Below are positions 17,201 to 23,200 of a stretch of DNA of 64,000 bases, piece after piece (within the stretch, counting starts at the first letter, position 1; every line of letters begins with the position of its first letter). Origin of the DNA: Escherichia coli O157:H7 (GTDB lineage Bacteria; Pseudomonadota; Gammaproteobacteria; Enterobacterales; Enterobacteriaceae); assembly GCF_013167455.1 (NCBI RefSeq), contig NZ_CP038328.1; one strand, written 5' to 3'. A program made the position numbers.

Positions 17201-20200
17201 TGCGATGACGCTGGTAACGCCGCCAGGCCTGTACGCCATTATAAATGGCGCTACCCAGCATCGTCAGTAGCAGCAGCGTGGTGCTGAGATAGCGCCACAG
17301 GCCGGAACGATCCGGGATCGGATGAAGGCCTATATGCTGCGTACCATTGGCGTCAGTGAAGATTTTTGTGACGATACCCTCGGCGTTAAACGGCGTATGC
17401 ATCAGCATTTGTGCCAGTTTCTGGAAAGCGTTCCACTGTTCTTGCGGCGGGTAGTCGTAAAGTGATGCCGAAGGCCAGGGCTGATCAACAAAATCGCTGC
17501 CTTCGTCGCTGACAATCAGGAATCCGCCGGGGGCCGGACTGTTTAGTGATTGTGCCGCTCGCGCCGTTTCATGCGTGATAAACGGCGCGGTGGAGGTTGC
17601 CACCAGGTTATCCAGCGATTCCGCACTCACCGGGCGTAATAACACATTCACGCCATCGAGCTTCCCGGCGTTGGCGCGTTTTACCAGCGCGTCCCAGTCT
17701 TTACTGTTGCCGAGATTGACCAGCGCATTTTTCAGTCGCACACAGTCATCTTTGGCAGAACACAGATCCGCTGTCTTCAGTACAATGTCGCCAAAATCAT
17801 CAAGCAATACCATGCCGGATTTTTGAATTGCTGAACGTAATGAGGCGCTGACGCGAGATTCATCTTCCGGTTTAGGGTGCAGCTGGCGATTAACTGCTTC
17901 AGTCAATGCCGTCGCTTTGTTGACCAGTTCAGATTCTGGTAATGGTAATGAGCGGGCGTCGTTCCAGATGATCTGCGAGCAGTCAAACGGTAAAAAAGGT
18001 GAATTGGTTTTCGCGCTCCAGGTTCCGGAAGTGCGAATATTACACATTCCCGTACCGCTAATACGCAATGTATCGCCTACCCGCACGCCAGCGTCAGCCA
18101 GTTGTTTTACGCTGGTGGCTTCAATGGTCTGCGCACCTTTCATCCATGAGAGAGTGAATTTCAGCGGCATATCCAGCGGGATCCAGAATAACAGCATAAA
18201 CAGCACCAGCAGCGAGCCCGCAGCGATAATCGTACTGCGCAGCCAGTGCTGTAACGGAAAGTTTTTTACTTCATCATGCAGCGAAAGATATCGCCCCTGA
18301 CGCACTAGGTGGCGGTCGAGATAGATATCAATATCGGTTTGTTGACCGAGATCCTGAGCAATGTATGGCTGCCAGTGTGCGGGATAGACCAGGTCGATAA
18401 TACCGAGTGAAATATTGTTGATCTGTTCCTGATCGTTTTCGCCAAACAATCCCCAACGACGGGGTGTACCGCGCAGACAATGAATTTCCCGCAGGGAGGA
18501 TTTTGCCGGGGGGGCGAATAGCCCCCACAGACCTGCGCCCAGCAGCAGTAACGCGCCGCCTGCCAGCCACGGAACAAATACATCCGGGGTAATCAGGCAG
18601 AAAAAGAACATCAGGAAGGAGGCGACGATCAGCAACGCTTCACGCAGCCCGCGCGGACGACTCAGCGCATATTCTTCATGCGTTTCTTTGCGAATATTGA
18701 GTAGCTCGATTTGCTCACTCTCTTCCCCGCGAATCGACGCCTGCGTGGACGGAACAGGTTGCAAGGCATAGCCGCGAGTTTCCTGCATGTACTCCTGCAG
18801 CGTATGACCGTTGAGTGAAATAACCAGCGGCAGCGAATCGGTATGAATCAGTTCAACGGTATTCTCATCGTTGATGTACTGCTCCCAGAAAGGGGGCAGG
18901 TGGACTTCTACCGAATCGAGGTAGTAACGCCATTTATTCGGATCGTCGGTAGAGATGCCGTAACGCGTGATAGCGTGTGTCAGCATCATGACGTTGTTGC
19001 TTTCGGCATTCAGCGCCAGAGAGATCGGTGCCGCGCTGGCTCCCGTTGGGCCAGGCACCTGTAATACCTGCGTCAGGCTCTCAAGATAATTTTCAACGGC
19101 GCTACGTTCTTCAGGTGTGAGTTTACGCGTTTGCGCATCCGCGAAGGCGTTGGTCCAGGGCAGCTGACGCCGTCTGGATCGCACTTTTATCAGCCATCCC
19201 GCAAGTAGTGAGCAGGCCAGCAAAGCAGCTAAAAAAATCACAATGGTGCTCATGCTTTCCCCATCTTACTTAGTCTGTCAGGCGTGGTCAGTCGCACCGG
19301 ACACAATACATGATTCTGCGGTTGGCTATCGGCAAGCGTGGAGTTTAACTTGAGCATCATTAAGCACATCACAGTAACCGCTGATCATAGCAAACCCTCT
19401 GAAGGCGGAATATCAGCAAATTCCTGGAGTTATTTCAACCTATTGACTTTTAATTTGATTTGAGGACGATTATTTATTAAGTTACATAAATGTAAATAAC
19501 ATGCAATTCACATTGCCGAAAGCGTGTCCGATATCGCACAATAACCGCTGATTTCACAGCATAGATCCCACGATGAGCAAATCATTACAAAAACCCACCA
19601 TTCTGAATGTTGAAACTGTAGCCCGTTCCCGACTGTTTACCGTCGAGAGCGTGGATCTAGAGTTCAGCAATGGCGTGCGGCGTGTTTATGAACGAATGCG
19701 TCCAACCAACCGGGAAGCAGTGATGATTGTGCCGATTGTGGACGATCACCTGATCCTGATCCGCGAATATGCAGTGGGAACTGAATCCTACGAATTAGGT
19801 TTTTCGAAAGGATTAATTGATCCGGGTGAAAGCGTCTTCGAAGCCGCTAACCGCGAGCTAAAAGAAGAGGTTGGATTTGGTGCGAACGATCTGACTTTTT
19901 TGAAGAAGCTCAGCATGGCACCGTCTTACTTTTCCAGCAAAATGAATATCGTGGTAGCGCAAGATCTCTACCCGGAATCGCTGGAAGGCGATGAGCCAGA
20001 GCCGCTACCACAGGTGCGCTGGCCGCTGGCGCATATGATGGATTTGCTGGAAGACCCTGACTTCAACGAAGCGCGTAATGTCAGCGCGCTGTTCCTCGTG
20101 CGCGAATGGTTGAAAGGGCAGGGGCGAGTGTAAATGCGTGAAGTTTGCCTGATGCACAATGCTTATCAGGCTTATGGGGTTCCTGCAATATATTGAGTTT

Positions 20201-23200
20201 TCACGATTTTGTTAGCCGGATAACGCGTTCACCCGTATCCGGCATAAACAAGTGCACTTTGTCAGCAAACTGAAAAGGCGCCGAAGCGCCTTTTTAATCA
20301 GAACAATTCCTGTGCCTCGCCATTATCGATAATGGTCGTTCCCACCTCGTGCACCGCCTGTTGTGTCGGCTGCGTACCTTCGATGAAATACTCTTCGCGG
20401 CTGTTGCCACCATTAGCTAACTGCCCGGTGCTGCGATCGATATTCACCGTCACAATACCCGGCGGCGGCGTCAGCGGCTGCTCCGGCACACCTTCAAGAA
20501 CGGCTTTCATATAAGCGTCCCATGCAGGCTGGGCACTCTTGGCACCGCCTTCGTAACCTGAAATCTGATCTTTAATCGCTCCGGAAGCCGTTGTATGACC
20601 GAGATTACGACGGTGATCATCAAAGCCAATCCAGACCGAGGTCACAACGCCCGGTCCGTAACCCGAGAACCACGCATCTTTCGAACTGTTAGTGGTACCG
20701 GTTTTCCCGCCGATATCGCGACGCTGCAAATCACGACCTGCACGCCAGCCGGTACCCTGCCAGCCTGGCTCACCAAAGATATTGGTGTTCAAAGCACTCT
20801 TAATCAGGAATGCCAGCGGAGTGTTGATGACGTGCGGTGCGTACTCCTGCGCGCCAGTCTTCGCCACTAACGCCTGATTTGCCTGCTCCAGCTGCGGCAT
20901 TGGTACAGAAACATTCTGCTGCTCGCGGGAGATAGCGACATCTTCAACATCGTTATTTTCCAGCACGTTCGATTTCTGCGTATCACCGTAAATCACCGGA
21001 ATATCGCATTCCGGGCAGGCTACTTTCGGTTTCGCTTCGAAAATCACGCCGCCCTGATCGTTTTCAATTTTGCTGATAAACCACGGGTCCACCAGGAAGC
21101 CGCCGTTCGCCATGACCGCGTAGCCGCGCGCCACCTGCATTGGGGTGAAGGACGCTGAACCCAGCGCCAGCGATTCGGTGTGGACAATGTTTTGCGCCGG
21201 GAAGCCGAAGCGTTGCAGATATTCTGCAGCGTAGTCGACGCCCATCGCCCGCATTGCGCGTACCATCACCACGTTTTTCGACTGACCCAGCCCCTGACGT
21301 AAGCGAATTGGACCGGCATACTGCGGTGGTGAGTTTTTCGGCTGCCAGTCAGAACCGGCACCTGCGTCCCAGCGAGAAATTGGCACATCGTTCAACATAC
21401 TTGCCAGCGTCAGACCTTTATCCATCGCCGCGGTGTAGAGGAACGGTTTGATGTTGGAACCCACCTGACGCAGTGCCTGGGTGGCGCGGTTAAACTTGCT
21501 CTGATTGAAATCAAAGCCACCGACCAGCGCCATAACGGCACCATTTTGCGGATTGATCGACACCAGTGCCGAGTTCACTTCCGGCACTTGTGCCAGCCAC
21601 CATGCATCGCCAACCTGACGAACCCAGATTTGCTGACCCGTTTGCAGAACATCGGTCACTTTACGCGGCGTCGGTCCCTGCTGAGTATCCGAACGGTAAG
21701 GACGCGCCCAGCGAACGCCTTCCATACTCAATGCGACGGTCGACCCGTCCGCCAGCATTGCCGTCGCTTCCTGAGGATTGGCGCTGGTGACTGCGGCAGG
21801 CAGCAGCGGACCATAGGTCGGCAGCGCCTTCAGCGTATCGGTAATCTTGTTGTTATCCCACGCCGACTCGCCCACTTTCCACAGCACATTTGCCGGGCCG
21901 CGATAGCCGTGGCGCATGTCGTAGTCCAGCACGTTATTACGTACCGCCTGCTGCGCGGCCTGCTGCACTTTGCGGGTGATGGTGGTGTAAATGCGATAAC
22001 CGTCTTCATAGGCACTTTCGCCATAACGGTTATACATCTCCTGGCGCACCATTTCGCTCAGGTACGGCGCAGAAAAAGCAATCTCCGGCGCGTGATAGTT
22101 AGCGTTAATCGCCTCAGTGCGTGTCTGATCGAACTGTTGCTGGGTGATATATCCTTCATCCAGCATCCGCGATAGCACGACGTTACGCCGCGCGACGGCA
22201 CGATCCATCGAGTAGAGCGGGTTGAAGGTGGAAGGCGCTTTCGGCAGCCCGGCTATCACCGCCATTTCGTTCAGCGTCAGTTGGTCGACCGTTTTTCCGA
22301 AATAGACTTGTGCCGCAGCACCGACACCATAGGCGCGGTAACCAAGGTAAATCTTGTTCAGATAAAGCTCGAGGATCTCGTCTTTCGTCAGCAACTGTTC
22401 AATGCGAATCGCGAGGAAGACTTCCTTAATCTTACGCATCAGCGTGCGTTCTGGACTGAGGAAGAAGTTTCTCGCCAGCTGCTGGGTAATGGTACTTGCC
22501 CCTTGTGACGCGTGGCCGGAGAACAGCGCCACACTTGCCGCACGGAAGATCCCCACCGGGTCAACGCCGTGATGCTCGTAGAAGCGGCTGTCTTCCGTCG
22601 CGATAAAGGCTTTCACCATCTCCGGCGGGATTTGATCCAACGTAACCGGAATACGACGTTTCTCACCGTATTGAGCAATCAGCTCGCCATCGGCGCTGTA
22701 AATCTGCATCGGAATTTGCAGGCGAACATCTTTTAATGTCGCCACATCCGGCAGTTGTGGCTCGATGTAGCGGTATAGGCCATAAATCGAGCCTGCTCCC
22801 AGCAGAATGCAACAGACTGCAAGGATCAAAAAATACTTTACGAACTTCACTGGAAATTTCCCATTTAGTTTCATTTGGGCAGTTTATAAACAAACGCGCG
22901 GTAGTATAAAGGCAAGCCAGACGCATTGATATACCCGTCAGAGTGACGGGTGATAAGGAGATCATCACAATGGCATTTAAGATCTGGCAAATTGGTTTGC
23001 ATTTACAACAGCAAGAAGCGGTAGCGGTTGCTATTGTGCGGGGCGCAAAAGAATGCTTTTTGCAACGCTGGTGGCGGTTGCCGCTGGCGCACGACATTAT
23101 CAAAGATGGGCGGATTGTTGATGCGCAGCGGCTGGCTAAAACGTTGTTACCGTGGAGTCGCGAACTGCCGCAGCGCCATCACATCATGTTGGCGTTTCCC

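What the first reader, a model, noticed from the sequence alone, without database searches (positions are those of the whole stretch)
20147..20296. Convergent-gene gaps carry REP palindromes, some next to bidirectional terminators
REP-like units occur at nudE/mrcA (two units plus a hairpin terminator abutting the mrcA stop), argD/yhfK (49053..49110), downstream of yhgF (5962..5996) and at the trpS/frlR junction. REPs are sites of DNA gyrase and IHF binding, mRNA stabilisation and occasional rearrangement. The trpS/frlR copy sits exactly where the yhfS-Z block is missing.
Basis: partly seen in the sequence, partly recalled or inferred. Interest (0 to 1): 0.2.

Follow-up and report, generated by a model that had tools for sequence, protein, structure and literature searches.

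The report
Ordinary REP/BIME-1 repeat plus shared terminator
The gap between the nudE and mrcA genes of this E. coli O157:H7 segment holds a well-known kind of repeated palindromic DNA (a BIME-1 element) and a two-way transcription stop signal, which is ordinary for E. coli; the nearby loss of the yhfS-yhfZ genes traces to a different repeat (BoxC), not to the REP.

Summary
The window is E. coli O157:H7.

**nudE/mrcA gap (20134-20297).** It holds:
- a short y-type REP (20146-20175, + strand);
- a 43-nt linker;
- an inverted z1-type REP (20244-20211, - strand);
- a -15 kcal/mol hairpin (20273-20295) with A- and T-runs on either side, 2 nt from the mrcA stop.

The two REPs plus linker align end to end with K-12 BIME-1 paralogues. 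This 111-bp segment has at least 37 places per genome across 5,425 E. coli genomes.

**Profile test.** A REP covariance model built from unrelated K-12 DNA ranks exactly five units first in the window: the two above, plus 33178-33214, 49076-49101 and 5966-5987.

**Comparison with K-12.** K-12 has the same units. It also has a BIME-1 next to trpS, and a complete rather than truncated REP after yhgF.

- The yhgF site is not a convergent gap.
- Gyrase cleavage is documented for BIME-2, not BIME-1.
- The yhfS-yhfZ deletion breakpoint lies in a 43-nt BoxC/TMECO repeat (33102-33144), 33 nt from the REP. Strains that keep the block carry two identical direct BoxC copies around it, so the deletion arose by recombination between them.

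Novelty: already known. Interest: low.

The parts
20146..20175 (+). y-type REP unit, the short variant typical of BIME-1. Palindrome 20147-20171 (GCCTGAT/ATCAGGC arms, TT bulge); the foot is CTTAT instead of the canonical CCTAC. It starts 13 nt after the nudE stop.
   Evidence: CM R1 27.3 bits, E 4e-5. Strict core hit. Aligns with short y units of K-12 BIME-1 paralogues. RNA hairpin -11.9 kcal/mol.
20176..20210 (.). L-type linker of BIME-1, between the two REP tails. It contains TGCAATATATTGAGTTTTCACGATTTTG. An IHF-consensus-like site lies at 20186-20198 on the - strand (ACTCAATATATTG, 1 mismatch to WATCAANNNNTTR).
   Evidence: Alignment A4 to K-12 BIME-1 linkers, consensus TGCAATnTATTGAATTTTCAnGATTTTGTAGG. 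The L linker is reported to carry an IHF site frequently (PMC3333891). The consensus hit alone is not significant: 48 hits against 46 expected.
20211..20244 (-). z1-type REP unit in inverted orientation (tail to tail with the y unit): TGCCGGATACGGGTGAACGCGTTATCCGGCTAAC. It has a 1-nt deletion in the inner stem relative to K-12, and the foot is CTAAC instead of CCTAC.
   Evidence: CM R1 20.6 bits, E 3e-3; the K-12 orthologue scores 32.9 bits. Alignments A1 and A4. Hairpin -16.9 kcal/mol.
20273..20295 (.). Bidirectional intrinsic-terminator-like hairpin: A-run, GGCGC stem, 4-nt loop (UUCG on the mrcA sense strand), GCGCC stem, T-run. It starts 2-3 nt after the mrcA stop (TGA at 20298-20300) and lies 140 nt after the nudE stop.
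   Evidence: Sequence. Folds at -15.5 kcal/mol on the nudE sense strand and -15.0 on the mrcA sense strand. Nearly invariant across divergent E. coli. The simple scanner missed it, most likely because the A/T pairs extend the stem into the T-run.
33178..33214 (+). Canonical REP with a perfect CTTATCCGGCCTAC 3' half. Its foot ends 2 nt from the frlR stop (33217-33219, - strand). Present at the same place in K-12 and O111:H11.
   Evidence: CM R1 46.2 bits, E 4e-10. Exact 14-mer match. The K-12 orthologue scores 49.9 bits. Sequences.
33102..33144 (+). BoxC / PIT / TMECO repeat: a 43-nt unit with the core CCCTCGCCCCTTTGGGGAGAGGGTTAGGGTGAGGGG at 33108-33143. This is the actual site of the yhfS-yhfZ deletion junction. 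It is not a REP.
   Evidence: Identical to TMECO no. 15 of MG1655 (3,504,892-3,504,857; PMC4666352 Table 1). Median 19 places per E. coli genome. Two identical direct copies flank the block in O111:H11.
49074..49103 (+). Diverged z1-like REP in the argD/yhfK convergent gap. The arms are TCGGAT/ATCCGA, changed on both sides relative to the canonical GCCGGAT/ATCCGGC but still complementary.
   Evidence: CM R1 29.6 bits, E 1e-5, local match 49076-49101. The K-12 orthologue scores 30.1 bits. Alignment A2.
49051..49067 (-). Remnant of a y-type REP (TGCCTGATGCGTCTTAT) abutting the argD stop codon. The 3' arm is missing.
   Evidence: Read from the sequence. Not significant in the profiles (nhmmer E 0.87).
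5962..5987 (+). Truncated z1-type REP downstream of yhgF, in a tandem gap rather than a convergent one. The interior is intact, but the 3' arm and CTAC foot are lost through a 19-nt indel relative to K-12.
   Evidence: CM R1 25.8 bits, model positions 6-27 only. K-12 has the full unit at 40.7 bits. Alignment A3.

Best explanation
The flagged stretch is a single-copy BIME-1 element followed by a bidirectional intrinsic terminator shared by the convergent genes nudE and mrcA. BIME-1 elements have also been called RIP or RIB elements.

Shown here:
- The anatomy is a short y REP (+ strand), an L-type linker and an inverted z1 REP.
- The two units belong to the E. coli REP family.
- The whole element is homologous to BIME-1 copies elsewhere in K-12.
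- The locus is orthologous across E. coli.
- The hairpin is stable, symmetric and flanked by A- and T-runs.

Inferred from what is known of the family:
- On DNA, the L linker binds IHF, which bends the DNA between the two palindromes.
- mrcA transcripts end at the hairpin directly after the stop codon. They therefore mostly do not include the BIME.
- nudE transcripts run through both REP hairpins before ending at the same hairpin from the other side. The REP stem-loops sit in the nudE 3' UTR, where they can slow 3'-to-5' exonucleases or act as leaky termination or pause sites.
- The first hairpin starts 13 nt after the nudE stop. It might therefore also interfere with terminating ribosomes.

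State of the element. It is old and decaying. Both GTAG/CTAC feet are mutated and the z1 inner stem has a 1-nt deletion. It is probably no longer a substrate of the REP-associated transposase.

Other sites. The other three sites are solitary or fragmentary REPs of the same family at gene 3' ends.
For: - Anatomy.
- Family membership by an independent covariance model.
- Full-length alignment to K-12 BIME-1 paralogues at yhfZ/trpS, ubiA/plsB, melB/yjdF and alr/tyrB.
- Dispersed copy number: the 111-bp element has a median of at least 37 places per genome in 5,425 genomes.
- Same architecture in K-12, with 3 substitutions and a 1-nt indel, and in divergent E. coli lineages.
- Hairpin energies of -15.5 and -15.0 kcal/mol with U-runs in both directions. 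The gap folds better than shuffles, z -2.75 and -5.05.
- Definition of BIME-1 and its IHF-binding L linker, and the requirement of GTAG for TnpA-REP (PMC3333891).
- REPs block 3'-to-5' exonucleases and can act as partial terminators; about 60% lie between convergent genes; 78 lie within bidirectional terminators (bioRxiv 10.64898/2026.03.23.713779).
Against: - No experimental data for this locus were found. IHF binding, the termination points and any effect on nudE mRNA are all inferred.
- The IHF consensus match in the linker has one mismatch and is not significant alone (48 hits against 46 expected).
- The two nudE/mrcA units are the weakest REP hits. They are marginal with a sequence-only profile (E 0.12 and 0.24).
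[quoted passage not shown] A stabilising role here is therefore uncertain.
- The simple terminator scanner did not call the hairpin.
Confidence: 0.9

Rival explanations
1. The palindromes are locus-specific hairpins, meaning ordinary terminators or chance inverted repeats. They would only resemble REPs superficially and would not belong to the family.
For: The sequence-only profile scores for the two nudE/mrcA units are marginal (E 0.12 and 0.24). Both lack the CTAC foot. Other hairpins in the window share GCCGGA arms without being REPs: tsgA at 44223-44253 and yhfA/prkB at 52617-52638.
Against: - The covariance model separates them from those hairpins: 27.3 and 20.6 bits against 16.7 bits or less.
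- The whole 111-bp unit, linker included, aligns with BIME-1 copies at four other K-12 loci.
- It has at least 37 places per genome.
- The K-12 orthologues score 29.1 and 32.9 bits.
Confidence: 0.03
2. REP sequences mediated the rearrangement that removed yhfS-yhfZ, and the trpS/frlR REP marks the breakpoint.
For: The REP at 33178-33214 lies in the 130-nt junction gap. K-12 carries a BIME-1 at the trpS end of the block and a REP at the frlR end.
Against: - The O157 junction sequence is the left flank of a trpS-side BoxC copy, one 43-nt BoxC unit, and the right flank of the frlR-side BoxC copy. That is exactly what is seen in O111:H11, which has both direct copies.
- The REP starts 33 nt beyond the repeat and is unchanged in strains with the block.
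- The 14 nt after the trpS stop (atcaaaacgctcgg) match the BoxC allele, not the K-12 BIME-1 allele.
- K-12's trpS-side BIME-1 and the frlR-side REP share no long direct repeat spanning the junction.
Confidence: 0.04
3. The main role of the nudE/mrcA element is as a strong DNA gyrase site that relieves the positive supercoils built up by convergent transcription.
For: Gyrase binds REP DNA in vitro, and convergent transcription accumulates positive supercoils (background cited in PMC6379681).
Against: In-vivo gyrase cleavage is enriched in BIME-2 (y + z2 tandem clusters) and is not reported for BIME-1. This element is a single y-L-z1 copy.
Confidence: 0.08
4. The gap encodes a stable small RNA or a 3'-UTR-derived regulator rather than passive repeat DNA.
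For: The gap folds much better than shuffles on the - strand (z -5.05). One promoter-like hit lies in the linker on the - strand.
Against: - No Rfam family matches anywhere in the window.
- The promoter-like count equals the chance expectation: 1 against 0.9.
- The strong folding is explained by the REP palindromes and the terminator.
- The BIME part evolves faster than its flanks.
Confidence: 0.04

Closest known systems
BIME-1 (y REP + L linker + z1 REP), also described as RIP/RIB IHF-binding elements at 3' ends of transcription units (Bachellier/Gilson nomenclature; PMC3333891)
   Same: - One y and one z1 unit in inverse, tail-to-tail orientation.
- A long conserved linker with the TGCAATnTATTGA core.
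- A single copy, not a tandem array.
- Extragenic, at the 3' ends of two genes.
- Full-length alignment to K-12 BIME-1 paralogues.
   Different: - It is degenerate. Both CTAC/GTAG feet are mutated (CTTAT, CTAAC).
- The z1 inner stem has a 1-nt deletion relative to K-12.
- The IHF core reads TTGAGT, against TTGAAT in the paralogue consensus.
- IHF binding was not tested here.
Solitary E. coli REP / palindromic units (y, z1, z2)
   Same: The units at 33178-33214, 49074-49103 and 5962-5987 have the GCCKGATG...CTTATCMGGC palindrome with the TT bulge. They lie just downstream of stop codons.
   Different: Only 33178-33214 is canonical. The argD/yhfK unit has altered but still complementary arms. 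The yhgF unit lacks its 3' arm and foot, which K-12 retains.
Bidirectional intrinsic terminators between convergent E. coli genes
   Same: A GC stem with an A-run upstream and a T-run downstream, read as hairpin plus U-tract from both sides. The same design is seen in the window at envZ/pck and slyD/slyX.
   Different: It is placed asymmetrically: flush with the mrcA stop, but 140 nt (a whole BIME-1) after the nudE stop. Termination was not measured.
BoxC / PIT / TMECO intrastrand-triplex repeats (PMC4666352)
   Same: Window 33108-33143 is identical to TMECO no. 15 of MG1655. This family is reported to associate with local genome variability.
   Different: This is not the family the finding was about. 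Here two direct copies appear to have recombined. The TMECO paper raises recombination between sites only as a possibility. I found no example of it in the passages I searched.

Membership tests
E. coli REP (palindromic unit) family | Imperfect palindrome of 30-40 nt with conserved outer arms GCC(G/T)GAT ... ATC(C/A)GGC | tested here: met
   Exact arms at 20147-20171, 20215-20243 and 33179-33210. The arms are diverged at 49074-49103 and truncated at 5962-5987. The y unit is short (25-nt palindrome), like other BIME-1 y units.
E. coli REP (palindromic unit) family | Asymmetric mismatch or bulge in the stem (GATG opposite CTTATC), which gives the unit an orientation | tested here: met
   GATGC...GCTTATC (y unit), GATAC...CGTTATC (z1 unit, - strand) and GATGCG...TCTTATC (33178-33214).
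E. coli REP (palindromic unit) family | Conserved GTAG/CTAC tetranucleotide at the foot, required for TnpA-REP binding (PMC3333891) | tested here: not met
   - Not met at the flagged locus: TTAT at 20172-20175 and TAAC (- strand) at 20214-20211 (alignments).
- Met at 33211-33214, which reads CTAC.
- Absent at 5988 onward, where the foot is deleted relative to K-12.
- The seed set also contains genuine REPs with mutated feet. This marks decay rather than exclusion from the family.
E. coli REP (palindromic unit) family | Significant score against a family profile built from independent copies | tested here: met
   With CM R1 the five units score 20.6-46.2 bits with E from 3e-3 to 4e-10, and they are the top five hits in the window. 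nhmmer gives the same ranking but only marginal E-values for the two nudE/mrcA units.
E. coli REP (palindromic unit) family | Extragenic, at 3' ends of genes, dispersed in many copies per genome | tested here: met
   All units lie in intergenic gaps downstream of stop codons. The 111-bp query has a median of at least 37 places per genome.
BIME-1 (RIP/RIB) | One y and one z1 REP in inverse orientation, separated by the long conserved L linker, occurring as a single copy | tested here: met
   Alignment A4 with four K-12 paralogues covers y, linker and z1. There is no tandem repetition in the gap. The definition is from PMC3333891.
BIME-1 (RIP/RIB) | IHF binds the L linker | not testable with these tools
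   There is only a one-mismatch consensus match at 20186-20198 (-), which is not significant on its own. No ChIP table could be consulted.
BIME-2 (gyrase-cleaved clusters) | y and z2 REPs with short S linkers, in tandem multiple copies | tested here: not met
   The window has no tandem y/z2 arrays. The locus has a z1 unit (GTGAAC loop) and a long linker.
Bidirectional intrinsic terminator | A stable GC-rich hairpin followed by a U-run on both strands, between convergent genes | tested here: met
   Energies are -15.5 and -15.0 kcal/mol. The tails are UUUUUAAU (nudE sense) and UUUUCAGUUUG (mrcA sense). Actual termination was not tested.
BoxC / TMECO (for the junction element) | A 34-37-nt motif of one pyrimidine and two purine blocks, CCCTCGCCCC...GGGGAGAGGG...GGGTGAGGGG | tested here: met
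   Window 33108-33143 is identical to the Table 1 entries of PMC4666352 and maps onto TMECO no. 15. Median 19 places per genome.

The most novel reading that the evidence does not exclude
This concerns the junction, not the flagged locus itself. The O157:H7 lineage lost the 7.7-kb yhfZ-yhfS cluster, together with the intrinsic terminator of the dam-rpe-gph-trpS operon. The loss came from recombination or replication slippage between two identical, directly repeated 43-nt BoxC/TMECO elements.

This would be a concrete, sequence-resolved case of BoxC x BoxC recombination changing gene content. About 1,500 sequenced E. coli genomes still carry the two-copy pre-deletion configuration, so they are poised for the same event. 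I found no such example in the TMECO paper passages I searched. Whether it is reported elsewhere was not checked.
Probability: 0.75. Interest if true: 0.3.

Novelty: already known. Interest (0 to 1): 0.12.

Why it matters
For the finding as given, it matters little. REP/BIME elements at the 3' ends of convergent genes, often beside or inside bidirectional terminators, are a long-described and recently re-quantified feature of E. coli. This locus is conserved across the species.

Three points have practical value:
1. The element class is BIME-1. IHF, rather than gyrase, is therefore the expected DNA-binding partner.
2. Strain differences are small: decay of units, one truncated REP, and one BIME-1 lost with the deleted block.
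3. The only real rearrangement in the window was attributed to the wrong repeat family. The BoxC direct-repeat signature explains the deletion. It also shows that O157:H7 lost the trpS terminator, which could alter read-through into frlR.

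Tried and rejected
- Rfam at gathering thresholds over the whole window gave 0 matches. No REP/BIME family matched, so this is uninformative.
- The RefSeq K-12 annotation served by the tool lists no REP repeat_region features for the 88 kb examined. A direct comparison with annotated REP numbers was therefore not possible. I built a profile from 200 kb of other K-12 DNA instead.
- The linker alone, searched with blastn-short against 350 kb, found only the orthologue. Homology of the linker became visible only in full-element alignments.
- The IHF consensus WATCAANNNNTTR with 1 mismatch gave 48 hits against 46 expected. It was rejected as evidence.
- IHF ChIP and footprint papers and the REP catalogues (PMC3333857, PMC8407004, PMC12306157, PMC3333891) had no supplementary tables held, or no mention of mrcA or nudE.
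- The simple terminator scanner missed the 20273-20295 hairpin, most likely because the stem extends into the A/T runs. It was checked by folding instead.
- 52617-52638 (GCCGGATAGTATTTTATCCGGC) is a strict-core hit, but it scores only 8-10 bits with the covariance model, so it was rejected as a REP.
- 44223-44253 is the tsgA terminator hairpin (16.7 bits) and was also rejected.
- The promoter-like hit in the linker equals the chance expectation.

Full report
**Provenance and map.** The window is E. coli O157:H7. The 1,328 bases spanning nudE-mrcA are 100% identical to Sakai, EDL933 and many other O157:H7 genomes, and the stretch is present in 5,422 of 5,426 complete E. coli genomes. Against K-12 MG1655, window 1-33091 equals 3,545,742-3,512,630 reversed, and window 33102-64000 equals 3,504,898-3,474,009. 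K-12's 7,731 bp (3,504,899-3,512,629, yhfS to yhfZ) is thus replaced by 10 bp (annotation).

**The flagged locus.** nudE (+) stops at 20133 and mrcA (-) stops at 20298-20300. The 164-nt gap contains, in order:
- GCCTGATGCACAATGCTTATCAGGC (20147-20171);
- a 43-nt spacer;
- GCCGGATAACGCGTTCACCCGTATCCGGC (20215-20243). Read on the - strand this is TGCCGGATACGGGTGAACGCGTTATCCGGCTAAC;
- a 28-nt spacer;
- AAAAGGCGC-CGAA-GCGCCTTTT (20273-20294).

The last hairpin folds at -15.5 kcal/mol in the nudE sense, followed by UUUUUAAU. In the mrcA sense it folds at -15.0 kcal/mol, has a UUCG loop, is followed by UUUUCAGUUUG, and starts 2-3 nt after the stop codon. The whole gap folds better than shuffles, with z of -2.75 and -5.05.

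**Is it more than chance, and is it REP?**
- The strict REP core (GCCKGAT, 8-32 nt, ATCMGGC) occurs 4 times in the window against 0.07 expected.
- For an independent profile I took 200 kb of K-12 from elsewhere on the chromosome. This stretch yielded 40 core hits, nearly all textbook y, z1 and z2 REPs, including the malE-malF and yjdM-yjdN (REP325) clusters.
- From these, plus units taken from the K-12 BIME-1 paralogues (none orthologous to a window site), I built an nhmmer profile and a covariance model, R1, with 11 base pairs.
- The next hit (16.7 bits) is the tsgA terminator hairpin.
- One caveat: with sequence alone the two nudE/mrcA units are marginal (E 0.12 and 0.24).

**What kind of REP element.**
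- The y unit (+ strand) and the z1 unit (- strand) face each other tail to tail across the linker.
- The 111-bp unit aligns over its full length with K-12 elements at yhfZ/trpS, ubiA/plsB, melB/yjdF and alr/tyrB.
- These share a short y unit, a linker with consensus TGCAATnTATTGAATTTTCAnGATTTTGTAGG, and an inverted z1 unit.
- That is the published definition of BIME-1: z1 and y, single copy, and a long, well-conserved L linker that frequently carries an IHF site (PMC3333891).
- The 111-bp query has a median of at least 37 places per genome, capped at 40, in 5,425 genomes.
- The IHF-like site ACTCAATATATTG (20198-20186) has one mismatch. It is not significant by itself, with 48 matches against 46 expected. 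IHF binding is therefore inferred from homology, not shown.
- Gyrase cleavage in vivo is documented for BIME-2 (y + z2 clusters; PMC6379681). The window contains none.

**Comparison with K-12 and other strains.**
- At nudE/mrcA, K-12 has the same two units in the same orientation, with 3 substitutions and one extra G in the z1 inner stem. The K-12 units score 29.1 and 32.9 bits.
- Divergent E. coli lineages carry the orthologous element. The BIME part varies more than the flanks, and the terminator is almost invariant.
- Both CTAC feet are mutated in the window (CTTAT, CTAAC). The GTAG/CTAC tetranucleotide is required for TnpA-REP binding and cleavage. The element therefore looks like an old, immobile, slowly decaying copy.
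- At argD/yhfK both strains have one diverged z1-like unit, whose arms TCGGAT/ATCCGA are altered but still complementary, plus a y remnant abutting the argD stop.
- Downstream of yhgF, K-12 has a complete REP (40.7 bits). The window has lost the 3' arm and foot through a 19-nt indel. This gap separates co-directional genes (yhgF, feoA), and a separate hairpin at 5915-5935 is the likely yhgF terminator.
- Over the syntenic stretch K-12 has 7 units at 5 sites and the window has 5 units at 4 sites. The two extra units are a BIME-1 between trpS and yhfZ, inside the K-12-only block.

**Context.**
- The window has 8 convergent gaps, and 3 hold REPs.
- The others have plain hairpin terminators, textbook bidirectional ones at envZ/pck and slyD/slyX.
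- Published figures from bioRxiv 10.64898/2026.03.23.713779: about 60% of E. coli REPs lie between convergent genes, 207 of 704 convergent gaps hold a REP, and 78 REPs lie within 306 bidirectional terminators.
- The title observation therefore restates the known genome-wide pattern.

**Mechanism (inferred).**
- mrcA transcripts should end at the hairpin directly after the stop codon.
- nudE transcripts should traverse both REP hairpins before the same hairpin ends them from the other side. This places the BIME in the nudE 3' UTR.
- REP stem-loops are reported to block 3'-to-5' exonucleases and to act as partial terminators. REP-containing mRNAs are targets of RNase R and PNPase.
- Genome-wide, however, terminal REPs do not lengthen mRNA half-lives.
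- From my own knowledge (Liang and Deutscher, 2015), REPs within about 15 nt of a stop codon can reduce translation. The y hairpin starts 13 nt after the nudE stop, and the frlR REP foot lies 2 nt from the frlR stop. None of this was tested here.

**The trpS/frlR junction.**
- The REP at 33178-33214 is canonical, but it is not the breakpoint. It sits at the same distance from frlR in K-12 and in O111:H11, both of which keep the block.
- The sequence at the breakpoint, 33102-33144, is a BoxC/PIT/TMECO element. Its core is identical to TMECO no. 15 of MG1655 (3,504,892-3,504,857; PMC4666352). This family has a median of 19 places per genome.
- In O111:H11 strain 88.0502 the yhfZ-yhfS block is flanked by two identical, directly repeated 43-nt BoxC units: trpS-TAAtatcaaaacgctcgg[BoxC]gcaggc... 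and ...tactga[BoxC]acgtacggg-REP-frlR.
- The window reads TAAtatcaaaacgctcgg[BoxC]acgtgcggg-REP-frlR. That is the left flank, one copy and the right flank, which is the classic product of recombination or slippage between direct repeats.
- Allele counts among 5,425 genomes: 341 have the deleted junction, essentially all at 99% identity or more to the window, which suggests one clonal lineage. 1,525 have trpS-BoxC-yhfZ. About 1,740 have the K-12-type trpS-BIME-1-yhfZ. The rest have other arrangements.
- The block occurs in K-12, O111:H11 and an ExPEC strain, so deletion in the O157 lineage is more parsimonious than insertion. That direction is inferred.
- The deleted segment included the intrinsic terminator that follows trpS (aaaccggggaaacccggttttttt). 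In O157:H7, trpS is now followed only by the BoxC and REP hairpins before meeting frlR head-on. The simple pattern scan finds no terminator-like site in the trpS/frlR gap itself (33087-33216).

**Verdict.** The flagged locus is an ordinary, conserved, somewhat degenerate BIME-1 beside a bidirectional terminator, which is already known biology. The one instructive result is a correction: the yhfS-yhfZ loss is explained by BoxC direct repeats, not by the REP.

Noticed in passing
window 33087-33216; L007 11196-11253 and 18909-18951: The yhfS-yhfZ deletion junction lies inside a 43-nt BoxC/TMECO repeat. O111:H11 carries two identical direct copies flanking the 7.7-kb block, and O157 has the single-copy recombinant. 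Of 5,425 genomes, 341 have the deleted form and 1,525 have the two-copy form.
   Followed up: yes
L007 11322-11345 (K-12 L002 about 42455-42480, - strand); absent from the window: The canonical intrinsic terminator after trpS (aaaccggggaaacccggttttttt) lies inside the deleted block. In O157:H7 the dam-rpe-gph-trpS operon has therefore lost it. The operon now runs into BoxC, then the REP, and then frlR head-on.
   Followed up: partly
K-12 L002 42500-42610 (trpS/yhfZ gap) versus L007 11196-11300: The spot just after the trpS stop is a variable repeat landing pad. K-12-type strains have a BIME-1 there, O111-type strains have a BoxC, and about 1,800 genomes have some other arrangement that was not examined.
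   Followed up: partly
window 5962-6015 versus K-12 L001 34708-34781: The segment downstream of yhgF is hypervariable. There is a 19-nt indel and several substitutions relative to K-12, which remove the REP 3' arm and CTAC foot. K-12 also has a GTAGGCC... start of a possible second, inverted unit running toward the yhgF stop.
   Followed up: partly
window 52617-52638: GCCGGATAGTATTTTATCCGGC lies in the yhfA/prkB convergent gap. It has perfect REP-like outer arms but no REP interior and scores only 8-10 bits with the REP model. It is either a plain terminator hairpin or an internally deleted REP relic.
   Followed up: partly
window 49074-49103: The argD/yhfK REP has arms TCGGAT/ATCCGA instead of GCCGGAT/ATCCGGC. 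The change affects both sides and keeps the pairing. It is shared with K-12.
   Followed up: partly
window 11207-11281 and 60103-60150: The convergent gaps envZ/pck and slyD/slyX carry textbook bidirectional terminators (A-run, GC hairpin, T-run) and no REP.
   Followed up: no
window 1-64000: Rfam at gathering thresholds finds nothing in the whole 64-kb window. K-12 annotates two antisense RNAs here (AsompR, AsCRP), and neither matched an Rfam family.
   Followed up: no
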